From the NCBI RefSeq assembly GCF_044324875.1, contig NZ_CP172185.1: 64,000 nucleotides of DNA; one strand, 5' to 3'. Below the pieces are notes generated by a model. The model searched no databases, had not been told where the DNA came from, and saw only the letters and a program-made list of their open reading frames with translations. This stretch comes from Escherichia coli (GTDB lineage: Bacteria > Pseudomonadota > Gammaproteobacteria > Enterobacterales > Enterobacteriaceae). This document shows, piece by piece, positions 1 to 11,159 of the stretch. Every line of letters starts with the position of its first letter. Within the stretch, counting starts at the first letter, position 1. Position numbers and translations under genes: made by a program.

Positions 1-53
1 CATCATAACTCACCAAACAACCAGTCACCAGTTAAGATACATCAAAAAAAAAT

Positions 54-91
54 TACCCATGGGTATTTACTTTTTGGATACCCATGGGTAT
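54..91. repeat. Two copies of the perfect palindrome TACCCATGGGTA (54-65 and 79-90; second extends to ATACCCATGGGTAT 78-91), centres 25 bp apart, each followed by a T-run
   Basis: Read directly from sequence; dyad symmetry typical of a dimeric DNA-binding protein operator. Confidence 0.6.
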
Positions 92-283
92 ACTTTTTTT
101 CATACCAACCCACCCCGCCCCACAGAACGCAGGGCAATACTTCGAGTTACCAGGCAGTGGTCAGGGGTTAAGTAGCCAGCCCGAGGCGTATGAACATGAC
201 GGCAGGGTTTAACTTTAACTATGCAGCAGGTTTTTGTTCCGCTACCCCGGCGTTAAGGGGAAACAGCACTGAGAGAAATCAGT

Positions 284-502
284 ATGCAGAAGCGAGAACC
301 CGTCATCATCTCGCCAGACTATACCGATGATGAACTTTATGAGTGGATGCGCCGGAAAATTCAGGCTGCGCAGGACCTGAAGTGGGCCAATGAAGCCAGG
401 GCTAAGGAGGCTGAAAATCTGTCAGCTCTGGAGCAGGATATCACCAGGCTGGAAAAAGCAGCGGCATTAAGCATTGCCAGAATGATTACATACCCGCGTT
501 AA
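284..502 (+). CDS. Hypothetical small prophage protein (72 aa), predicted helical/coiled-coil
   Basis: ORF with GAGA-type RBS upstream, co-oriented with prophage early genes; no recognised family. Confidence 0.45.
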   Translation: MQKREPVIISPDYTDDELYEWMRRKIQAAQDLKWANEARAKEAENLSALEQDITRLEKAAALSIARMITYPR

Positions 503-946
503 CAGCTAATCAACAAGGCCAGGGTTGGTAATTAATGACTTCTCCACGGGTGAGGTGGAGTGCGTGCGCCGGACACAGACTGGTTAACGTCGCCTGGAGG
601 CACCAGGCACCGCATCAACAAAGTTCACTTCGGTGATGAAAGGTAAGAGAAAATGTTGAATGTAGCTATTGAAAACCAGTACGGGTGGAATTATAGTGCA
701 CCTGCACCTCATAAAGCGGGTGCCGGGATTGCTACCCCGACGTTCACTAACGCGCATAACCGCGCCCAGGCGGTTTTTTTATGCGTAATGCACAGCCACA
801 TTCAGATTATGGTGGGGCGTGCAGGGCAGCCGCAAGGCTGGCCGGGTTCGTTAGTGACCGGTTGTAGCAACCCTGTACGTCTCACCACCCATGAGATTGC
901 TACCTCCGGTGGTGAGTTAATCAAATTCACTAACGAGGCTGCCATC

Positions 947-1501
947 ATGGCTACTATCCCTACCCTTTCTCACCCTGACATAACCATCAAAAACGGTCGC
1001 GCTGTCACTACGTCTATTGCGATCGCAGAGTTCTTTGGCAAGCGCCATGAACGAGTGCTGGATAAAATTCGCAATCTGGACTGTTCAGCAAAATTCACTG
1101 AGCACAATTTTGTGTCGAGCAAATACACCGACTCAACCGGGCGCAAACTCCCTATGTACCAAATCACCAAAAACGGCTTCGTTTTCCTGGTGATGGGCTT
1201 CACGGGCAAAAAGGCCGCTGCATTCAAGGAAGCCTACATTGCCGAGTTCGACCGCATGGAGGAAGAACTGCGCCGGAATAACACCACACCCGCTGACAAA
1301 ATAATCCCGGGTGATGGCCGCACCCTGGTTATCCGCTTCGACGAACACGGCTACATCAAATTCACCGAAACCGTTCCTGATGGCGCACTGGTCTGTACTC
1401 TGGATACTTTCCGTTTTTATCTGGAAAAGCAGGGATGGACTCTCATAAACCGGGGCGCAATTAAAAATATGACCGTCGAGCAGTTGCTGAGTATTAAATA
1501 G
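947..1501 (+). CDS. Phage regulatory protein, Rha family (about 184 aa)
   Basis: Motif TTSIAIAEFFGKRHERVLDKIRNL typical of the Rha N-terminal domain; GAGG RBS before ATG 947; the track ORF 653-1501 is probably over-extended upstream. Confidence 0.7.
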   Translation: MATIPTLSHPDITIKNGRAVTTSIAIAEFFGKRHERVLDKIRNLDCSAKFTEHNFVSSKYTDSTGRKLPMYQITKNGFVFLVMGFTGKKAAAFKEAYIAEFDRMEEELRRNNTTPADKIIPGDGRTLVIRFDEHGYIKFTETVPDGALVCTLDTFRFYLEKQGWTLINRGAIKNMTVEQLLSIK

Positions 1502-1546
1502 TTTTCTGGAATTTCCTTCATATCACAAATTATTAAGGAGATTATT

Positions 1547-1768
1547 ATGATTGCTCATCACTTCGGAACCGATGAAATACCACGCCAGTGCGTCACTCCC
1601 GGCGATTACGTTATTTACGAAGGCCGGACATATATCGCCTCGGCAAACAATATCGAAAAGCAAAAACTTTATATCCGTGATTTCACTACAAAAACATGCA
1701 TTACTGACCGCATGATTAAAGTCTTCCTCGGTCGTGATGGTTTACCTGTAAAGGCGGTGGCATGGTGA
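1547..1768 (+). CDS. Hypothetical small prophage protein (73 aa)
   Basis: Strong RBS AAGGAG 8 nt before ATG; no recognised family. Confidence 0.5.
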
Positions 1769-3990
1769 GCTGTAATAAATAACTGACCCAATACGACATT
1801 CAGCTTAATAAATACATAAGGGTCGATTCTTATATGCCAGCAATGGCAGGGATTCGCACAACCTTAAAACAGCAATGAGGTTTATCAATGAGCACTGATA
1901 AAGAAACTTTTGCGCTATATTGCGAAGCTAAAAATGACAAAGTCAGAAAACGCCTTGGGATTAAAGGTGGTTTTTACTGGACTACAGCAAAAAAATTATC
2001 TGTTGCCATCTCCCGCTGCATTACCGCAATGGATGATAACGATTATGATGAAGACGACTTTAAAAAACCTGTTCGCGTCCATTTGCCCGTTGTTGATGAC
2101 CTTCCACCGGAAGGCGTGTTTGATACCGAATTCTGTAACCGGTATGAAAAAGGCGGCGAAGATGGCATCACAATGATATTTATCGCGCCTCCGCCATCCG
2201 CGCAGGACAAACCAGCCAGCACTGACAACACCAATGTTAATGGCGAAGACATGACTGAGATTGAGGAGAATATGCTTCTGCCGGTTTCAGGTCAGATTCT
2301 GCCTGTTCGCTGGCTGGCGCAACACGGCGGCGAAAAACCAGTAACGCACGTTTCGCGGGATGAACTGCGCTCATTACATAACGCACAGGAAGAAAAACTT
2401 CCCGCCGTTACCGCGCTGGCCATCTCAAATAAAGCAGCGCAACTCGAACCGCTGGAGATTCGGGATTTGTACAAACTGGTGCGGGACACTGACAAAGTTT
2501 TTCCCGCTCCCGTAAATTCAGACCTGGGACTGATGACCTCCTTCATCGAAGCATACCTGGACGCTGACTACACTGATCGTGGTCTGCTTACAAAAGAGTG
2601 GATGAAAGGAAATCGTGTTTCTCGCATCAGTCGCACACCATCCGGCGCTAACGCTGGCGGCGGTATTCTTACCGATCGCGGCGAAGGTTTTGTGCATGAT
2701 AATGCGTCAATGGCATTCGATGTTGCTACAGGAAAACTGGCTCGTTCGATGGATGTGGATATTTACAGCATGCATCCTTCACATACCAGACGTGTTAACG
2801 AAATTATCGCAGAAAATGATCCCTGTTTCTCCGTCTTCCTTAAGGCTTTTCTGAACATGCCAGGCGGGATGGATTATTCCCGCGCCATCGTGGTTGCCTC
2901 CGTGAAAGAAGCACCGGTTGGTATAGAGGCTATGCCCCACCGCGTCACCGAATACCTGAATAAAGTGCTGACCGAAACCGATCATGCCAACCCTGATCCG
3001 GAAATCGTGGATATTGCCTGCGGTCGTTCCTCTGCACCAATGCCGCAGCGTGTAACAGAAGAAGGAAAACAGGATGATGAAAAAAAACCGCAACCGTCTG
3101 GCGCAATGGCAGATGAACAGGCAACTACTAAAACAGTGGAACCGGATACAACTGAACATCATCCGGACACGCAGACGCTGGATGCTCGGCCGCAGGTGAA
3201 TTCTGTTGATGCGAAATATCAGAAACTGCGGGCAGAACTCCATGAAGCCCGGAAAAACATTCCGCCCCAAAATCCTGTCGACGAAGACAAATTGCTGGCA
3301 ACCTCTCGCGGAGAATTTGCTGAAGGGATTAGCGACCAGAATGATCCGAAATGGGTGAAGGGGATTGAAACCCGCGATTCTGTGAACCAGAATCAGCAAG
3401 AAACGGAACAGAACGACCAGAAAGCGGAACAAAACAGCCCAAATGTGCAACGAAAAGAGCCAAAAGCGAAACAATCCGAACCAGTAGCGCAACAGGAACC
3501 GGAAAAAGTCTGCACCGTCTGCGGTCAGAGCGGTGTCGACAACTGTCCTGATTGTGGCGTGGTGATGGGCGACGCAACATACCAGGAAATGTTCGATGAA
3601 GAGAATCAGCCTGAAGTTCAGGAAAATGATCCAGAGGAAATGGAAGGCTCTGCGCATCAGAACAAGGAGAACTCTGGCGGCAATCAGCATCATGCCAGCG
3701 ATAGTGAAACTGGCGAGACGGCAAATCCCTTAATTAAGATAACCAGTCATCACAAATATAAGTCCACAAGCAAAACGTGGTATCACCTGATGATCGACCT
3801 TGAAACAATGGGAACCAACACCAATGCACCCATAGTAGTTATTGGTGCGGTTTTCTTCGACCCGGAAACAGGGGAAATCGGGCCGGTATTTTATATCGTT
3901 ATCAGCCTGACTGACGCAATGAATACAGGGGCTGTTTGAACCGCCCCGGGAATCCTGGAGACTAAACTCCCTGAGAAAGAGGTAAACAGA

Positions 3991-4317
3991 ATGACTAAAA
4001 ATACTCGTTTTTCCCCCGAAGTCCGTCAGAGGGCGATTCGTATGGTTCTGGAAAGTCAGGGCGAATATGACTCACAGTGGGCGGCAATTTGTTCCATTGC
4101 CCCAAAGATTGGCTGTACACCGGAGACTCTGCGTGTCTGGGTACGCCAGCATGAGCGGGATACCGGAGGCGGTGATGGCGGGCTCACCACCGCTGAACGT
4201 CAGCGTCTGAAAGAGCTGGAACGTGAAAATCGTGAACTGCGCCGCAGTAACGATATCCTTCGCCAGGCTTCCGCTTATTTTGCGAAGGCGGAGTTCGACC
4301 GCCTCTGGAAAAAGTGA
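3991..4317 (+). CDS. IS629 transposase OrfA (108 aa)
   Basis: Recognised IS3-family OrfA sequence; stop overlaps orfB start in ATGA. Confidence 0.9.
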
Positions 4318-5204
4318 TGCCACTGCTGGATAAGCTGCGTAAGCTGTACGGGGTCGGACCGGTATGCAGTGAACTACATATTGCCCCGTCAACGTATTAC
4401 CACTGTCAGCAACAGCGACATCATCCGGATAAACGCAGTGCCCGTGCGCAGCGCGATGACTGGCTGAAGAAAGAGATACTGCGCGTATACGATGGGAATC
4501 ATCAGGTATACGGTGTGCGTAAAGTCTGGCGTCAGTTGTTACGGGAAGGAATCAGGGTAGCCAGATGTACAGTGGCGCGCCTCATGGCGGTTATGGGACT
4601 TGCCGGTGTTCTCCGGGGTAAAAAGGTCCGCACTACCGTCAGCCGGAAAGCCGTTGCCGCAGGCGACCGCGTAAACCGTCAGTTTGTGGCAGAACGTCCT
4701 GACCAGTTGTGGGTGGCTGATTTTACTTACGTCAGCACATGGCAGGGGGTCGTCTATGTGGCGTTCATCATTGATGTGTTTGCCGGATACATCGTGGGGT
4801 GGCGGGTCTCATCGTCTATGGAAACGACATTCGTGCTGGATGCTCTGGAGCAGGCGTTATGGGCCCGTCGACCGTCCGGCACAGTCCATCACAGTGATAA
4901 AGGTTCTCAGTATGTATCGCTGGCCTACACACAGCGGCTTAAGGAAGCCGGATTACTGGCATCAACAGGAAGTACTGGTGACTCGTATGACAACGCGATG
5001 GCGGAGAGCATCAATGGCCTTTACAAAGCGGAGGTAATACACCGTAAGAGCTGGAAAAACCGGACAGAAGTGGAGCTGGCCACACTCACGTGGGTGGACT
5101 GGTATAACAATCGACGATTGCTGGAAAGGCTGGGCCATATCCCACCGGCAGAAGCAGAAAAAGCTTATTATGCTTCCATCGGAAACGATGATCTGGCAGC
5201 CTGA
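4314..5204 (+). CDS. IS629 transposase OrfB (296 aa, DDE integrase-like catalytic domain)
   Basis: IS3-family OrfB; overlaps orfA by 4 nt. Confidence 0.9.
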
Positions 5205-5706
5205 GTTCACAGATAAAACACTCTCCAGGAAACCCGGGGCGGTTCAGTTCCTGATGGTGGCACCATCGAATGGTGGCTGAAGCAGTCCAGCGAAGCCAGA
5301 GCTGCCATTTTAACTGACCAGGTAAAAATGAAAGATGCCCTTTTGCGTTTTCGGGAATTCGTCAATGAACACTCCGATGAAAAATTCGTTCAGGTGTGGG
5401 GTAATGGCGCAACGTTCGATAACGCAATTTTGCGCACCTCATACGAACGTCTGGACATCCCCTGTCCGTGGCATTACAGCAACGATCGTGATGTACGCAC
5501 AATCGTTGAGATGGGGAAAATCACAGACTTCAATGCCAGAAGCGTAATTCCATTCGAAGGCGTGCGCCATAATGCTCTGGATGACGCTCTTCACCAGGCA
5601 AAATACGTAACAGCCGCTATACAAAAACTGATCCCGAATCAGGCTGATTTTTAATGTTCAACAGTCGCCAGTTGTCGTTGCTATTCTGCAACTGGCGCGT
5701 TCCGGA

Positions 5707-5985
5707 GTGATAGCCATGAGCGAACAGTACCTGATAACGCTCGATGAGTGGAAACCAAAACGGTTCAGTCTCCCAATAACAAACACTACCCTGGTGAAAT
5801 ATGGAAAACTAGGATACATCGTTCCAAGACCACAAAAAATTCGTGGGCGTTGGCTGATAGATCGCCGGGCAGTATTTGTTGGGCCAGGTGAAACAGGAAT
5901 TGCGCCGGAAATTCATACTGGCGATGATGATGCACTGAAGGAGATTTTAACTCATGTCACCGAGGCCACGAAAAAACAGCACTGA
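5707..5985 (+). CDS. xis: Prophage excisionase-like protein (92 aa)
   Basis: Small basic ORF directly upstream of and overlapping the integrase start by 32 nt. Confidence 0.6.
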   Translation: MIAMSEQYLITLDEWKPKRFSLPITNTTLVKYGKLGYIVPRPQKIRGRWLIDRRAVFVGPGETGIAPEIHTGDDDALKEILTHVTEATKKQH

Positions 5986-7072
5986 CGTAGCCGGTCTTTA
6001 CGAAAAGTTTGATCGCAGAACTGGCAGGGTTTACTACCAGTATAAAAACCCTGTGACTGGAAAATTTCACGGTCTCGGAACAGACAAATGTAAGGCAGAA
6101 AAAATCGCTTCCACAGCCAATCAGCGAATAGCTGCAGCAGAAGCTGAATATTACATGCGCAAAATTGATGAAAGTCCGTCAGCAACAAAACGTCGGGGTA
6201 TCAGATTAAAGGCATGGGTTGAACGATATCTGAAAATACAGGACACACGACTAAAAAATGGAGATATTGCAGCTACAACCCACAAAGAAAAAGCCCGAAT
6301 GGCTGCATACCTGGTTTCCCGTCTGGGAAACCACCCATTGAAAGAACTGGAAGTAAGAGACTTTGCATTGATACTGGATGAGTGGCTGGATAAAGACATG
6401 GTCAGCACGGCGAGAGTAAACCGTGGATTATGGGTTGATATTTATAAAGAAGCACAGCATGCAGGGGAAGTTCCTCCCGGATGGAATCCTCCGGAGGCTA
6501 CCCGTAAACCGATCCCTAAAGTAAGCAGAGCCAGACTCACCCTGGAAGACTGGCAAAAAATTTACAATGCAACGCCTGAAAGGCACTTTATTCGTAACGC
6601 AATGCTTCTTGCAATTGTTACTGGTCAGCGCCGTGATGACATTTGCCACATGCGTTTTTCAGATGTGTGGAACGAACACTTGCATATCACCCAGGGAAAA
6701 ACCGGAATGCGTCTGGCGTTACCGCTTACACTCCGCTGTGATGCCATTGGGATAACGTTAAAAGAAGTTATTGATGGATGCCGAGACAGAATATTAAGTC
6801 CATACCTAATCCATAGTCGGCACCAGAAACAACCAAAACCGATGAGTAAAGACAACCTGAGCGACTACTTTGCCAAAGCACGGGATCTGGCTGGGATAAT
6901 TCCACCAGCAGGAAAAACTCCTCCCACATTTCATGAACAACGCTCTCTATCAGAACGGCTGTACCGTACGCAGGGTATCGATACAAAAACATTACTGGGA
7001 CATAAAATCCAGGCAACCACCGATCGCTATAACGATACCCGAGGTCAGGAATGGGTTAAGTTGGTTATTTGA
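5954..7072 (+). CDS. int: Prophage tyrosine integrase (372 aa)
   Basis: C-terminal catalytic signature HxxR (HEQR) and terminal Tyr (DRYNDTR); N-terminal arm-binding-like region; lies at the prophage/host junction. Confidence 0.9.
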   Translation: MSPRPRKNSTDVAGLYEKFDRRTGRVYYQYKNPVTGKFHGLGTDKCKAEKIASTANQRIAAAEAEYYMRKIDESPSATKRRGIRLKAWVERYLKIQDTRLKNGDIAATTHKEKARMAAYLVSRLGNHPLKELEVRDFALILDEWLDKDMVSTARVNRGLWVDIYKEAQHAGEVPPGWNPPEATRKPIPKVSRARLTLEDWQKIYNATPERHFIRNAMLLAIVTGQRRDDICHMRFSDVWNEHLHITQGKTGMRLALPLTLRCDAIGITLKEVIDGCRDRILSPYLIHSRHQKQPKPMSKDNLSDYFAKARDLAGIIPPAGKTPPTFHEQRSLSERLYRTQGIDTKTLLGHKIQATTDRYNDTRGQEWVKLVI

Positions 7073-7238
7073 CAAACACCATATGGAATATCCGTCACCA
7101 TCTCAGGAAAAAAGTGTTGTAAAATGCGTGGCCTTGTTTTGGGGAAAAGTTTTGGAGAGATTTTGGAGAAAGGAAAAAATTGAATAAATTCAAAATCCTG
7201 AAAGTGCTCCACCTTATGAATAAAAAGGTGGAACTCGA
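7073..7238 (+). promoter_or_regulatory. attR region with three direct repeats TTTTGGRGA (7137-7145, 7150-7158, 7161-7169) and a short open frame ending ...NKKVELE* that overlaps the potC start like the potB 3' end
   Basis: Repeats read from sequence; the phage/host boundary must lie in this interval because int ends at 7072 and potC starts at 7239. Confidence 0.5.
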
Positions 7239-8033
7239 ATGATCGGTCGACTGCTTCGCGGCGGTTTTATGACCGCTATCTACGCGTACCTGTATATCCC
7301 AATCATTATTTTGATTGTGAACTCCTTTAACAGCTCGCGCTTTGGCATCAACTGGCAGGGTTTTACCACCAAATGGTATAGCCTGCTGATGAACAACGAC
7401 AGCCTGTTACAGGCAGCGCAGCATTCACTAACAATGGCGGTGTTTTCGGCGACGTTTGCTACGCTTATCGGTTCACTGACGGCAGTTGCGCTGTACCGTT
7501 ATCGCTTTCGTGGTAAGCCGTTCGTTAGCGGAATGCTGTTTGTGGTGATGATGTCACCAGATATCGTGATGGCGATTTCGCTGCTGGTGCTGTTTATGCT
7601 GCTGGGTATTCAGCTTGGCTTCTGGTCGCTGCTGTTCTCGCATATCACCTTCTGCCTGCCATTTGTGGTGGTGACAGTGTATTCGCGCCTGAAAGGTTTT
7701 GACGTGCGAATGCTGGAAGCGGCGAAAGATCTCGGTGCCAGCGAATTTACCATTCTGCGAAAAATCATTCTGCCACTGGCAATGCCAGCGGTAGCGGCGG
7801 GCTGGGTGTTAAGCTTTACCCTGTCGATGGACGATGTAGTAGTTTCTTCGTTCGTCACCGGACCAAGCTATGAAATTCTGCCGTTAAAAATTTATTCGAT
7901 GGTCAAAGTCGGCGTATCGCCGGAAGTTAACGCGCTGGCAACCATATTACTGGTGCTGTCGCTGGTGATGGTAATTGCCAGCCAGCTTATTGCTCGTGAT
8001 AAAACGAAAGGTAACACAGGGGACGTTAAATGA
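7239..8033 (+). CDS. potC: Spermidine/putrescine ABC transporter permease PotC
   Basis: 264-aa ORF recognised as E. coli PotC. Confidence 0.95.
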   Translation: MIGRLLRGGFMTAIYAYLYIPIIILIVNSFNSSRFGINWQGFTTKWYSLLMNNDSLLQAAQHSLTMAVFSATFATLIGSLTAVALYRYRFRGKPFVSGMLFVVMMSPDIVMAISLLVLFMLLGIQLGFWSLLFSHITFCLPFVVVTVYSRLKGFDVRMLEAAKDLGASEFTILRKIILPLAMPAVAAGWVLSFTLSMDDVVVSSFVTGPSYEILPLKIYSMVKVGVSPEVNALATILLVLSLVMVIASQLIARDKTKGNTGDVK

Positions 8034-9076
8034 AAAAATGGTCACGCCACCTGCTCGCGGCGGGTGCTCTGGCACTGGGCATGAGCGCCGCTCACGCCGA
8101 TGACAACAACACGCTGTATTTTTACAACTGGACCGAGTACGTGCCACCAGGACTGCTTGAACAGTTCACCAAAGAAACCGGTATTAAGGTTATCTATTCG
8201 ACTTACGAGTCGAACGAAACCATGTATGCCAAGCTGAAAACGTACAAAGACGGTGCCTATGACCTGGTGGTTCCTTCAACCTATTACGTCGATAAAATGC
8301 GTAAAGAAGGGATGATCCAGAAGATCGACAAGTCGAAGTTAAGCAATTTCAGCAACCTCGATCCAGACATGCTCAATAAGCCGTTTGACCCGAATAACGA
8401 CTACTCCATTCCGTATATCTGGGGTGCGACGGCGATTGGTGTTAATGGTGATGCGGTGGATCCCAAATCCGTTACCAGCTGGGCCGATCTGTGGAAGCCT
8501 GAGTACAAAGGCAGCCTGCTGCTGACCGACGATGCCCGTGAAGTGTTCCAGATGGCACTGCGTAAGCTGGGCTACTCCGGTAACACCACCGATCCGAAAG
8601 AGATTGAAGCTGCATACAACGAGCTGAAAAAACTGATGCCAAACGTCGCGGCGTTTAACTCCGATAACCCGGCGAACCCGTATATGGAAGGCGAAGTTAA
8701 CCTCGGCATGATCTGGAACGGTTCTGCTTTCGTTGCACGCCAGGCGGGTACGCCAATTGATGTGGTGTGGCCGAAAGAAGGCGGCATTTTCTGGATGGAC
8801 AGCCTGGCGATCCCGGCAAATGCCAAAAACAAAGAAGGCGCGCTGAAATTGATCAACTTCCTGCTGCGCCCAGATGTGGCAAAACAGGTTGCTGAAACTA
8901 TCGGTTATCCAACGCCAAACCTTGCGGCGCGTAAGCTGTTAAGTCCGGAAGTGGCGAACGATAAAACGCTCTACCCGGATGCTGAAACCATTAAAAATGG
9001 TGAATGGCAGAATGACGTTGGCGCAGCCAGCAGCATTTATGAAGAGTATTATCAGAAGCTGAAAGCAGGACGTTAA
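8030..9076 (+). CDS. potD: Spermidine/putrescine periplasmic binding protein PotD
   Basis: 348-aa ORF with signal peptide, recognised as PotD. Confidence 0.95.
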   Translation: MKKWSRHLLAAGALALGMSAAHADDNNTLYFYNWTEYVPPGLLEQFTKETGIKVIYSTYESNETMYAKLKTYKDGAYDLVVPSTYYVDKMRKEGMIQKIDKSKLSNFSNLDPDMLNKPFDPNNDYSIPYIWGATAIGVNGDAVDPKSVTSWADLWKPEYKGSLLLTDDAREVFQMALRKLGYSGNTTDPKEIEAAYNELKKLMPNVAAFNSDNPANPYMEGEVNLGMIWNGSAFVARQAGTPIDVVWPKEGGIFWMDSLAIPANAKNKEGALKLINFLLRPDVAKQVAETIGYPTPNLAARKLLSPEVANDKTLYPDAETIKNGEWQNDVGAASSIYEEYYQKLKAGR

Positions 9077-9595: not shown

Positions 9596-10294
9596 AAAAA
9601 ATCATAATACTGCTCAGTTTACTGATACTGCTGCCTCTGACAGCAACCAGTAAGCCCTTAATCCCAATAATGAAGACACTTTTTACGGATGTTACAGGTA
9701 CTGTACCGGATGCTGAGGAGATTGCGCGGAAAGCGGAGCTTTTTCGTCAACAAACCGGGATTGCGCCGTTTATCGTGGTTGTACCTGACGTTAATGAAGC
9801 AAGCTTCAGGCAAAATGGCAAAGCGATGCTGGCGCATGCGTCATCTTCATTGAGTGATGTAAAAGGCAGCGTCCTGTTACTTTTTACCACCCGCGAGCCA
9901 CGGTTAATTATGATAACCAACGGCCAGGTTGAAAGCGGTCTGGACGATAAACATCTCGGCCTTCTGGTTGAAAATCACACTCATGCTTATTTACATGCGG
10001 ACCTCTGGTATCAGGGAATCAATAATGCATTGGCTGTTTTACAAGCACAGATATTAAAACAACCGACGCCGCCACTGACATATTATCCGCATCCCGGACA
10101 ACAGCAGGAGAATGATCCTCCCGGCAGTACCACGATATTAGGTCTTTTTGCCTGGGCAGTTGCATTCATCTTCTTTACTGCATTTTTTTACTACACGACG
10201 CGCCTTAATTATGCATTAAAGTTTGCAGTGGCGATGACTATTGCCAATATGGGTTATCAGGCTTTATGTTTGTACATCGGGTAATGACTCCAAC

Positions 10295-10798
10295 TTATTG
10301 ATAGTGTTTTATGTTCAGATAATGCCCGATGACTTTGTCATGCAGCTCCACCGATTTTGAGAACGACAGCGACTTCCGTCCCAGCCGTGCCAGGTGCTGC
10401 CTCAGATTCAGGTTATGCCGCTCAATTCGCTGCGTATATCGCTTGCTGATTACGTGCAGCTTTCCCTTCAGGCGGGATTCATACAGTGGCCAGCCATCCG
10501 TCATCCATATCACCACGTCAAAGGGTGACAGCAGGCTCATAAGACGCCCCAGCGTCGCCATAGTGCGTTCACCGAATACGTGCGCAACAACCGTCTTCCG
10601 GAGCCTGTCATACGCGTAAAACAGCCAGCGCTGGCGCGATTTAGCCCCGACATAGCCCCACTGTTCGTCCATTTCCGCGCAGACGATGACGTCACTGCCC
10701 GGCTGTATGCGCGAGGTTACCGACTGCGGCCTGAGTTTTTTAAGTGACGTAAAATCGTGTTGAGGCCAACGCCCATAATGCGGGCAGTTGCCCGGCAT
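10295..10798 (-). CDS. insB: IS1 InsB reading frame (expressed as InsAB' by frameshift)
   Basis: 167-aa ORF recognised as IS1 InsB. Confidence 0.9.
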
Positions 10799-10992
10799 CC
10801 AACGCCATTCATGGCCATATCAATGATTTTCTGGTGCGTACCGGGTTGAGAAGCGGTGTAAGTGAACTGCAGTTGCCATGTTTTACGGCAGTGAGAGCAG
10901 AGATAGCGCTGATGTCCGGCGGTGCTTTTGCCGTTACGCACCACCCCGTCAGTAGCTGAACAGGAGGGACAGCTGATAGAAACAGAAGCCAC
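10717..10992 (-). CDS. insA: IS1 InsA
   Basis: 91-aa ORF recognised as IS1 InsA. Confidence 0.95.
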
Positions 10993-11159
10993 TGGAGCAC
11001 CTCAAAAACACCATCATACACTAAATCAGTAAGTTGGCAGCATCACCTGTACATCGATAATAGCTTTGCGATTACCAGAATATCGCCGCTCTGGGCAGGG
11101 CTGATTGGTGTCTGTACGTTTATTGCCGCGTTGTTATTGACGAGTAAACGGTAAAAGAG

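What the first reader, a model, noticed from the sequence alone, without database searches (positions are those of the whole stretch)
1..7238. Prophage end abuts intact potC, splitting the potABCD operon
The integrase ends at 7072 and potC starts at 7239, while potA and potB, which immediately precede potC in K-12, are absent from the window. A short frame (7123-7242) ends ...NKKVELE* and overlaps the potC ATG exactly as a potB 3' end would, so the att core probably covers the last potB codons. potCD would then be separated from potAB by the whole prophage and depend on read-through from int or a cryptic promoter.
Basis: partly seen in the sequence, partly recalled or inferred. Interest (0 to 1): 0.6.

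Follow-up and report, generated by a model that had tools for sequence, protein, structure and literature searches.

The report
Common prophage splitting the potABCD operon

Summary
A lambda-type integrase ends at 7072 and an intact potC starts at 7239. potA and potB are absent from the window except for the last 26 nt of potB (7217-7242, 25/26 identical to K-12).

This is the int-proximal junction of a lambdoid prophage at the potB/potC site. That is the site of Sakai prophage Sp6, whose Int is 97% identical to this one, of O104:H4 prophage J, and of several Stx2 phages. [quoted passage not shown]

Among 5,426 complete E. coli genomes, 1,603 carry the same xis-int-potC junction and 3,800 have an uninterrupted potB-potC junction.

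I refined the att site. The exchange most likely lies in TGAATAA (7217-7223). This stretch is flanked by a perfect 8-bp inverted repeat, TCCACCTT/AAGGTGGA, whose right arm is potC's Shine-Dalgarno sequence. Three tandem TTTTGGRGAAA repeats (7137-7171) are candidate arm-type Int sites.

In lysogens with both ends available, potB stays intact with a phage-supplied C-terminal tail.

The far end of this particular prophage lies outside the window, and its genome could not be retrieved. What transcribes potCD remains untested. I found no terminator between int and potC, only weak promoter-like matches, and no RNA data.

Already known; low interest.

The parts
284..502 (+). Small prophage early-left gene (YdfC-like, 72 aa)
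   Evidence: phrog_1744, E=6.5e-38. The same gene is called in relatives L004-L011.
653..1501 (+). Rha/Ash-type phage regulator or antirepressor ORF. Its 5' part overlaps isrK-like (704-780) and C4 antisense RNA (805-892) motifs.
   Evidence: phrog_995, E=7.7e-134. Pfam Phage_ASH + Phage_pRha on the identical protein. Rfam RF01394 at 62.7 bits and RF01695 at 78.2 bits.
1547..1768 (+). KilR-like septation inhibitor
   Evidence: phrog_294, E=9.2e-34. PF27398 KilR on the identical protein.
1888..3936 (+). 5' part of a RecE-like exonuclease VIII gene, interrupted by an IS element
   Evidence: phrog_607, E=5e-234. The uninterrupted 817-aa gene is present in L004, L005 and other relatives. The window aligns to them at 1-3936 and 5247 onward.
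3937..5246 (+). IS629-like IS3-family insertion sequence (orfA 3991-4317, orfB 4314-5204) with a 3-bp target duplication, GTT
   Evidence: ORFs. Ends TGAACCGCCCCGGG...CCCCGGGGCGGTTCA and flanking GTT/GTT. ALIL frameshift pseudoknot at 4272-4388, 116 bits. 99.8% identical to an IS copy in L009.
5247..5654 (+). 3' part of the RecE-like exonuclease gene (ORF 5328-5654)
   Evidence: phrog_2082 positions 716-823, E=5e-48. Collinear with the intact gene in relatives.
5716..5985 (+). Excisionase (xis); its 3' end overlaps the int start
   Evidence: phrog_629 excisionase, E=5e-26. Annotated as excisionase in strain 602354, Sakai and others.
5954..7072 (+). Lambda-type tyrosine integrase (372 aa) with an N-terminal arm-binding domain, transcribed toward potC
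   Evidence: E=2e-53 to lambda Int structure 1z1b over residues 26-371; the catalytic-motif stretches align (TGQR, KTG, FHE-RSL, LLGHK, Y). PF09003 + PF00589 on the identical protein. 97% identical to Sakai Sp6 Int ECs_1501.
7073..7216 (.). Phage attachment-site arm on the int-proximal side (P'-like). It carries three tandem TTTTGGRGAAA repeats at 7137-7171, which are candidate arm-type Int binding sites.
   Evidence: No similarity to K-12 potB here. Direct-repeat family D1. The GTTTTGGAGA pattern clusters at 7136-7169. One copy occurs in the opposite arm of strain 602354. The function of these repeats is inferred.
7208..7232 (.). Recombination core: inverted repeat TCCACCTT (7208-7215) / AAGGTGGA (7225-7232) flanking the probable 7-bp overlap TGAATAA (7217-7223). 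The block identical to attB is 7217-7230.
   Evidence: Inverted repeat I1, 100% complementary, 9 nt between arms. Junction alignments. The exchange is placed left of 7224 by allele patterns.
7224..7242 (+). Host-derived remnant of the potB 3' end (…K K V E L E stop), including potC's Shine-Dalgarno AAGGTGG (7225-7231)
   Evidence: 25/26 identity to the K-12 potB end over 7217-7242. The phage version of this stretch differs from 7231 onward (AGCGAATTAG… in 602354-type; CAACAG… after AAGG in Sp6).
7239..8033 (+). potC, intact
   Evidence: 264 aa, 100% amino-acid identity to K-12 PotC, 6 synonymous differences.
8030..9076 (+). potD, intact
   Evidence: 348 aa, 1 amino-acid difference from K-12 PotD, 27 synonymous differences.

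Best explanation
Window 1 to about 7223 is the early-left end of a lambdoid prophage: rha/ash, kilR, recE::IS629-like, xis, int, then the P'-like att arm. It is integrated at the potB/potC attachment site of an E. coli/Shigella-type chromosome.

**Integration (inferred).** A lambda-type Int, which has an arm-binding domain, recombined a phage attP with a 14-bp stretch in the last codons of potB, TGAATAARAAGGTG. The strand exchange most likely lies in the 7-bp TGAATAA.

**Effect on this side.** The junction keeps the host's last potB codons, potC's Shine-Dalgarno sequence and intact potC-potD.

**Effect on the other side (seen in relatives, outside the window).** potB is completed by a few phage-encoded codons: ...KKVSELDD* in one type, or ...KKATEIDN* in Sp6. 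potB therefore stays whole.

**Net effect.** potAB, with the potA promoter, is separated from potCD by about 45-50 kb of prophage. potC also loses its stop/start coupling to potB.

**What is shown and what is inferred.** The anatomy, the junction, the homology to known prophages and the prevalence are shown. It is inferred that this genome's far end is at potB. It is also inferred that potCD is transcribed from within the prophage, most simply by unterminated transcription of the same-strand xis-int (early-left) genes, and translated from potC's own Shine-Dalgarno sequence.
For: - **ORFs and coordinates:**
- **Junction:** homology to K-12 potB-potC begins at 7217.
- **Whole prophages in relatives:** about 45 kb between intact potB and potC in strain 602354. 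Sakai Sp6 is annotated 1541611-1590033 between potC ECs_1500 and potB ECs_1570, with the same 166-nt int-potC spacing and Int 97% identical.
- **Int family:** a full-length lambda Int homologue.
- **Prevalence:** 1,603 of 5,426 complete E. coli genomes carry xis-int-potC and 3,800 have the uninterrupted junction. The hybrid PotB is listed in 33,056 index blocks of the assembly collection, and in all 10 places displayed the genes next to potB include phage tail-fibre or tail-assembly genes.
- **Crossover position:** position 7224 (A/G) is a host polymorphism present in many empty sites. It is never A at the potB-phage junction in 913 genomes. It is mixed at int-potC junctions.
- **Core and arm repeats:**
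- **No barrier to read-through:** no + strand terminator-like site from 5500 to 7239 and no significant structure in the spacer (z=-0.33).
- **potC/potD maintained:** intact in 12 of 12 other lysogen loci examined and nearly identical in protein to K-12, with 33 synonymous versus 1 non-synonymous differences.
- **Literature:** PMC8190617, PMC3486847, PMC9453080, PMC8065619.
Against: - The far end of this prophage is not in the window. The source genome is not among 5,426 complete E. coli genomes; best identity is 99.0% over 23 kb of flanking chromosome, and no genome covers 80% of positions 1-7238. The only exact matches to the IS1-truncated YcfZ are two 4.7-kb read-assembly contigs. An intact potAB at the other end is therefore not demonstrated for this genome.
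- The genome is rich in IS elements (IS629-like in recE, IS1 in ycfZ), so rearrangements are conceivable.
- No transcript data were found for potC in any lysogen. The sigma-70 scan found no promoter-like site at 5500-7600. The int and early-left promoters of lambdoid phages are normally repressed in lysogens (established lambda biology), so read-through may be weak.
- The exchange position is inferred from allele patterns, not from mapped cleavage sites.
Confidence: 0.88

Rival explanations
1. potCD has its own promoter, supplied by the phage arm or the 3' end of int. It is then expressed independently of both the potA promoter and phage early transcription.
For: A position-weight scan gives two + strand candidates. 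One is an extended -10, TGgGATAAT, at 6892-6900 inside int, scoring 10.2; only 13 sites in the 64-kb + strand reach 10. The other is TTGGAG-16-TAAATT at 7163-7190, scoring 8.4, about 45 nt upstream of potC. potC and potD are intact and conserved in all lysogens examined, which suggests they are still used.
Against: The stricter consensus scan finds nothing at 5500-7600. Sites scoring 8 or more occur about once per kb by chance. The int-internal candidate falls in the Ile codon of DLAGII, which is Val in Sakai Sp6 Int, so it is probably not conserved. The spacer candidate overlaps the putative arm-type Int sites. There are no experimental data.
Confidence: 0.2
2. potCD is effectively silent in lysogens, so the PotABCD spermidine importer is disabled. 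The intact potC and potD merely reflect recent or reversible insertion.
For: The potA promoter is about 45-50 kb away in relatives, and potAB transcription enters the prophage antisense to the tail genes. No convincing promoter was found. PMC9453080 describes the phages as disrupting the operon. E. coli has other polyamine routes (general knowledge), so loss could be tolerated.
Against: The insertion is present in about 30% of complete genomes. potC and potD are full length in 12 of 12 other lysogen loci from diverse backgrounds, with 0-2 amino-acid changes. An EDL933 microarray paper lists potABCD together as up-regulated in rpoS mutants (PMC2907692), though per-gene values and the state of this site in EDL933 were not checked. 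No terminator blocks read-through from int.
Confidence: 0.2
3. In this particular genome the element is a rearranged or truncated prophage remnant, and potAB has been deleted or moved. In that case there is no simple 'operon split by one prophage'.
For: The far end is unseen. The genome carries IS629-like and IS1 insertions within 11 kb. In O157, prophages at potC take part in large inversions and deletions (PMC10925052).
Against: The 7.2 kb present is collinear with complete prophages in relatives and 99.6-99.8% identical to them, apart from the simple IS insertion with its target duplication. The window's first bases continue into the immunity region in those relatives. In the lysogens where I looked at both ends, potB is at the far end, and 960 genomes match a potB-phage junction query at 80% coverage or more.
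Confidence: 0.07

Closest known systems
Prophage Sp6 of E. coli O157:H7 Sakai (lambda-like, annotated between potC ECs_1500 and potB ECs_1570)
   Same: Same insertion site and orientation. The integrase is the same length, 372 aa, and 97% identical. The int-potC spacer is the same 166 nt. xis-int-att are in the same order. The junction ATGAATAAAAAGGTGGAACTCGAATG is the same (PMC8190617).
   Different: Sp6 has a different int-distal arm: the PotB tail is ...KKATEIDN* and identity with attB ends after AAGG. Its early and late genes differ and it carries effector cargo (espK, espO, espX7). The left core half-site is CCCGCCTT rather than CTCCACCTT. The window's prophage has a recE::IS629-like insertion.
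Other published potB/potC prophages: O104:H4 2009EL-2071 prophage J, and Stx2a/Stx2d phages of O113:H21 and other STEC
   Same: The same chromosomal site. [quoted passage not shown] 2009EL-2071 is among the direct hits for the window's xis-int-potC (H30).
   Different: No stx genes are visible in the 7.2 kb available. The cargo of the window's prophage is unknown.
Bacteriophage lambda Int/attP site-specific recombination
   Same: Int is homologous over its full length, including the arm-binding domain and the catalytic motifs. xis lies upstream and overlaps int. int is adjacent to an arm with three tandem repeats, as with lambda P'1-P'3. An inverted-repeat core flanks a 7-bp stretch.
   Different: The target differs (potB 3' end rather than gal-bio intergenic), as do the core and arm sequences. 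Cleavage positions, IHF and Xis sites were not mapped here. Integration lies inside an operon, so it has polar consequences that lambda integration lacks.
Phages that integrate into the 3' end of a gene and rebuild it (e14 and phage 21 at icd; tRNA-gene integrators)
   Same: The phage attP carries a substitute for the displaced 3' codons, so the target gene, here potB, remains a full-length ORF.
   Different: Here the target is an internal gene of a four-gene operon whose stop codon overlaps the next gene's start. Rebuilding potB therefore does not restore the transcriptional or translational linkage to potCD.

Membership tests
Lambda-type tyrosine integrase (Int family with arm-binding domain) | C-terminal catalytic domain with the R-K-H-R-H-Y residues | tested here: met
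   phmmer E=2e-53 to lambda Int (1z1b), aligned over residues 26-371. The TGQR, (G/S)KTG, FHE(Q/L)RS, LLGHK and (R/Q)Y stretches are aligned and conserved. PF00589 on the identical protein.
Lambda-type tyrosine integrase (Int family with arm-binding domain) | N-terminal arm-type DNA-binding domain | tested here: met
   PF09003 Arm-DNA-bind_1 is recorded for the identical protein. The alignment to full-length lambda Int starts at residue 26. RefSeq names close homologues 'phage integrase Arm DNA-binding domain-containing protein'.
Lambda-type tyrosine integrase (Int family with arm-binding domain) | attP with arm-type repeats and an inverted-repeat core around a 6-8 bp overlap | tested here: inconclusive
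   The sequence pattern fits. There are three tandem TTTTGGRGAAA repeats at 7137-7171 and one in the other arm. The 8-bp inverted repeat TCCACCTT/AAGGTGGA flanks 9 nt containing TGAATAA. Binding and cleavage were not tested, and the 10-mer count over the whole window is not above chance.
Sp6-type potB/potC-integrating lambdoid prophage | Int-proximal junction directly upstream of potC with the shared core in the last potB codons | tested here: met
   The junction matches those of Sakai Sp6 and strain 602354 apart from a few SNPs. It is found in 1,603 of 5,426 complete genomes.
Sp6-type potB/potC-integrating lambdoid prophage | Integrase of the same type | tested here: met
   362 of 372 residues (97%) identical to ECs_1501. 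The exact protein is encoded next to potC in all 8 places displayed, out of 24 contigs read.
Sp6-type potB/potC-integrating lambdoid prophage | Int-distal junction at potB with a duplicated core and a rebuilt potB 3' end, in the same genome | not testable with these tools
   This lies outside the window and the source genome was not retrievable. It is met in relatives: strain 602354, Sakai and 913 genomes with the 602354-type junction.
Sp6-type potB/potC-integrating lambdoid prophage | Complete lambdoid gene set (immunity, replication, lysis, morphogenesis) | not testable with these tools
   Only the early-left 7.2 kb is in the window. Relatives with 99.6-99.8% identical DNA continue into repressor, YdaS/YdaT and O/P-like genes.
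potABCD spermidine/putrescine ABC importer operon | Intact potC and potD orthologues in the conserved neighbourhood (ymfA, ycfZ, cobB, nagK, lolCDE) | tested here: met
   PotC is 100% and PotD 99.7% identical to K-12. The gene order matches K-12.
potABCD spermidine/putrescine ABC importer operon | Contiguous potA-potB-potC-potD under the potA promoter | tested here: not met
   Only the last 26 nt of potB precede potC. potA and potB are absent from the window.

The most novel reading that the evidence does not exclude
The prophage does more than break the operon; it rewires it. Under this reading, the int-proximal arm or the end of int supplies constitutive or phage-state-dependent transcription of potCD. 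potC is translated from the Shine-Dalgarno sequence that forms the right core site. In roughly a third of E. coli strains, PotC/PotD levels would then be uncoupled from the potA promoter and its polyamine feedback, and would be restored on prophage excision. This would be a widespread, reversible form of lysogenic conversion of polyamine uptake.
Probability: 0.1. Interest if true: 0.45.

Novelty: already known. Interest (0 to 1): 0.1.

Why it matters
It matters little as a discovery. The potB/potC site is a catalogued prophage and Stx-phage insertion site, and about 30% of complete E. coli genomes are occupied there.

Its modest value is practical.

- The junction, core TGAATAARAAGGTG at 7217-7230, can be used to set prophage boundaries. 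At least two GenBank 'phage' records overrun it into potC-potD.
- No published measurement was found, in the searchable library, of whether potCD is still expressed or spermidine uptake still works in these very common lysogens.

Tried and rejected
1. **Retrieving the source genome to see the far prophage end.**
   - No complete E. coli genome covers 80% or more of positions 1-7238.
   - The best chromosomal identity is 99.0%.
   - The IS1-truncated YcfZ is found only in two 4.7-kb read-assembly contigs from run ERR14764776.
   - I did not walk along related contigs, because strain 602354, Sakai and the population counts already show the far end.

2. **Looking for a free-phage attP.** The only near matches to int in the phage collection are two 'partial genome' records that are really prophage excerpts, with potC, potD, ymfA and ycfZ annotated as phage genes. 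A search with the int-distal arm gave one prophage-type Stx1a record and otherwise only partial matches that do not reach the core (e.g. phage cdtI, and lambda-like phages over tail-fibre-assembly genes). attP was therefore reconstructed from the two junctions only.

3. **Looking for transcript evidence for potC in lysogens.**
   - The Sakai dRNA-seq paper has no supplements held.
   - The EDL933 11-condition supplements have no pot entries.
   - The EDL933 Cappable-seq supplement lists one start site annotated to potB and none to potC, and the stored file is truncated.
   - Fold-change tables in PMC7649339 and PMC2907692 do not resolve promoter usage.

4. **First model for the crossover, rejected.** I first placed it in AAGGTG, to the right of the A/G site, with A as the phage allele. 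A is common at empty sites yet never found at 913 potB-phage junctions. In Sp6, identity with attB ends after AAGG.

5. **Steyert et al. 2012 (PMC3491183).** The main text does not contain 'potC', so that attribution rests on later papers that cite it.

6. **Structure or terminator between int and potC.** None was found.

Full report
**1. Observation**

ORF listing and direct reading confirm every coordinate in the finding.

- A 372-aa ORF runs from 5954 to 7072 on the + strand.
- It is followed after 166 nt by potC (7239-8033) and potD (8030-9076).
- PotC is 100% identical in amino acids to K-12 PotC. PotD differs at one residue. In total there are 33 synonymous and 1 non-synonymous codon differences.
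- The frame 7123-7242 is open and ends ...LMNKKVELE*. Its TGA overlaps the potC ATG.
- K-12 PotB ends ...SRLLNKKVELE*.
- A sensitive blastn search with K-12 potA+potB against the window finds only 7217-7242 (25/26 nt). The tblastn hits are the paralogues PotC and LolD.

Only the last 7-8 codons of that frame are potB. Positions 7123-7216 show no similarity to potB.

**2. What the left 7.2 kb is**

All genes run on the + strand, toward potC. In order:

| Coordinates | Feature |
|---|---|
| 284-502 | YdfC-like small gene |
| 653-1501 | Rha/Ash-type regulator |
| 1547-1768 | KilR |
| 1888-3936 and 5247-5654 | RecE-like exonuclease VIII, split by an IS |
| 3937-5246 | IS629-like IS3-family element, 3-bp GTT target duplication |
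| 5716-5985 | Excisionase |
| 5954-7072 | Integrase |

These assignments rest. The integrase is a full-length homologue of lambda Int: E=2e-53 to PDB 1z1b, with the catalytic-motif stretches aligned. The identical protein carries the arm-binding domain PF09003 and PF00589.

The same 7.2 kb, minus the IS, is 99.6-99.8% identical to prophage DNA next to potC in several NCBI assemblies. There it continues leftward into repressor, YdaS/YdaT and replication genes. This is therefore the early-left, int end of a lambdoid prophage.

**3. The junction**

Alignment with the uninterrupted K-12 potB-potC junction shows that homology begins at 7217.

- Window: ...ccaccttA TGAATAAa AAGGTG GAACTCGAATG
- K-12: ...cgtttgC TGAATAAg AAGGTG GAACTCGAATG

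In the complete genome of strain 602354, a lambdoid prophage of about 45 kb lies between potC and potB. It runs from terminase to tail fibres on one side and from immunity to int on the other. At its far end potB reads ...CTGAATAAGAAGGTG AGCGAATTAGATGATTAA. PotB is therefore a complete ORF whose last residues ELE are replaced by SELDD.

That hybrid PotB is listed in 33,056 index blocks of the assembly collection. In all 10 places displayed, the genes next to potB include phage tail-fibre or tail-assembly genes.

In O157:H7 Sakai, the annotated 'prophage Sp6; lambda-like phage' (1541611-1590033) occupies exactly this position, between potC ECs_1500 and potB ECs_1570. It has the same 166-nt int-potC spacing, and its Int is 97% identical to the window's. 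The Sp6 far arm differs: its PotB tail is ...KKATEIDN*, and identity to attB ends after AAGG.

**4. Where the exchange occurred**

The block shared by attB and the reconstructed attP is TGAATAARAAGGTG (7217-7230). The R position (7224, A in the window) is informative.

- Many uninterrupted potB-potC sites carry A. In one search the 40 best rows are all 100% matches spanning potB and potC, and include ATCC 8739 and E. coli C. It is therefore a host synonymous polymorphism.
- At int-potC junctions the base is mixed, A or G.
- At the potB-phage junction, none of 913 genomes has A.

The simplest reading is that 7224 and everything to its right in the window is host DNA. The invariant G at the potB side is then phage DNA, and the exchange lies in TGAATAA (7217-7223).

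This 7-bp stretch sits inside a 9-nt spacer between a perfect 8-bp inverted repeat, TCCACCTT (7208-7215) and AAGGTGGA (7225-7232). That geometry matches a lambda-type core: two core-type sites around a 7-bp overlap.

Three tandem TTTTGGRGAAA repeats (7137-7171), plus one copy in the opposite arm of strain 602354, are plausible arm-type sites.

These assignments are inferred from sequence pattern and allele distribution. They are not based on binding or cleavage data.

**5. Consequences**

- The right core half-site, AAGGTGG (7225-7231), is also potC's Shine-Dalgarno sequence, 7 nt upstream of the ATG. potC therefore keeps its own translation signals.
- The ATGA stop/start overlap with potB, which suggests translational coupling, is lost. 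Upstream of potC there is now only an 8-codon phage/host hybrid mini-frame, ATG AAT AAA AAG GTG GAA CTC GAA TGA (from 7216), with no obvious ribosome-binding site. This is read directly from the sequence.
- In relatives the potA promoter ends up about 45-50 kb away, and potAB transcription enters the prophage antisense to the tail genes. potCD must therefore be transcribed from inside the prophage, if at all.
- All prophage genes visible in the window point toward potC. No terminator-like site lies on the + strand between 5500 and 7239. The int-potC spacer has no significant structure (z=-0.33). Any transcription of xis/int should therefore continue into potCD.
- Promoter evidence is weak. The consensus scan finds none. 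A looser matrix scan gives two candidates, an extended -10 at 6892-6900 and TTGGAG-16-TAAATT at 7163-7190, at scores that chance also produces.
- potC and potD are full length in all 12 other lysogen loci examined, with 0-2 amino-acid changes. That is compatible with continued use but does not prove it.
- No transcript or start-site data for potC in a lysogen could be found.

**6. Prevalence and prior knowledge**

Of 5,426 complete E. coli genomes:

| Feature | Genomes |
|---|---|
| xis-int-potC junction at 80% or more query coverage | 1,603 |
| Uninterrupted potB-potC junction | 3,800 |
| 602354-type potB-phage arm at 80% or more query coverage | 960 |

Almost every interrupted site is thus explained by this integrase type.

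The literature already lists the site:

- Sakai Sp6 at potC/potB (PMC8190617).
- O104:H4 prophage J at potB/potC (PMC3486847).
- potC as an Stx-phage insertion site (PMC8065619).
- Prophages at potC acting as breakpoints of large inversions and deletions in O157 (PMC10925052).

**7. Limits**

The window starts inside the prophage, so its far end and potAB are not visible. The source genome is not in the complete-genome collection; best identity is 99.0% over 23 kb of adjacent chromosome, and no record covers 80% of positions 1-7238. Its lineage-specific IS1-truncated YcfZ occurs only in two short read-assembly contigs. The claim that potAB sits at the far end in this genome is therefore inferred from relatives. 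I give it about 0.9 probability.

**8. Verdict**

The att core does cover the last potB codons. The expression hypothesis is sensible but untested.

The feature is a new instance of a well-known and very common prophage insertion, so it counts as already known. Interest is about 0.1.

The only slightly new details are the placement of the exchange in TGAATAA, the overlap of the core with potC's Shine-Dalgarno sequence, and the two alternative phage-encoded PotB tails.

Noticed in passing
window 704-892 (within ORF 653-1501): Rfam finds isrK (704-780, 62.7 bits) and C4 antisense RNA (805-892, 78.2 bits) on the + strand, inside the 5' part of the 282-aa Rha/Ash ORF. This resembles the P1 immI c4-ant arrangement, so the true protein start may lie downstream of the RNA elements even though the assemblies call the whole 282-aa ORF.
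   Followed up: no
window 3937-5246: An IS629-like IS3-family element with a 3-bp GTT target duplication and an ALIL frameshift pseudoknot (4272-4388) splits the prophage recE-like exonuclease gene. It has the same orientation as int and potC. It should be polar on early-left transcription, and could in principle contribute outward transcription toward int-potC.
   Followed up: partly
window 10280-11047: An IS1 copy with a 9-bp target duplication, TGTACATCG, truncates ycfZ to 230 aa. This exact truncated protein occurs only in two 4.7-kb contigs from run ERR14764776, so the window's lineage is poorly represented in public assemblies.
   Followed up: partly
whole window (chromosomal part 11100-34000): The best match among 5,426 complete E. 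coli genomes is only 99.0% identical. K-12 is 95.8-97.5% identical across potC-lolC. The host is an E. coli/Shigella-type lineage absent from that collection, and its IS load hints at Shigella or a similarly IS-rich lineage. It was not identified.
   Followed up: partly
L012 (ON470619.1, phage vB_EcoS-813R8) 4286-7285; also ON470612.1: Two GenBank 'phage' records are prophage excerpts that run past the att core into the host genes potC, potD, ymfA and ycfZ, which are annotated there as phage genes. This is a boundary over-extension that could seed false 'phage-encoded polyamine transporter' annotations.
   Followed up: partly
window 7181-7188 and 7217-7224: The 8-mer TGAATAAA, which contains the probable overlap sequence, occurs twice, 36 bp apart. 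One copy is in the phage arm and one is at the core. It may be chance in AT-rich DNA or a secondary or ancestral core; this was not examined.
   Followed up: no
L008 about 11266 and L015 about 4835: A T/C polymorphism lies inside the probable overlap (TGAAYAA; Asn codon AAT/AAC). It appears at an int-potC junction in one genome and at a potB-phage junction in another. Either overlap variants exist in hosts and phages, or a single mismatch in the overlap is tolerated.
   Followed up: no
L025 (Sakai) 1700-3650: Sp6 carries type III effector cargo (espK, espO1-1, an nleB2 pseudogene, and espX7 nearby) plus an IS2 near its potB-side end. Prophages at this site can therefore be virulence-gene carriers. 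The cargo of the window's prophage is unknown.
   Followed up: no
window 44892-45060 (-) and 46921-47257 (+): SraB sRNA and the RNase E 5' UTR element are detected at their expected chromosomal positions. No tRNA genes are present in the window.
   Followed up: no
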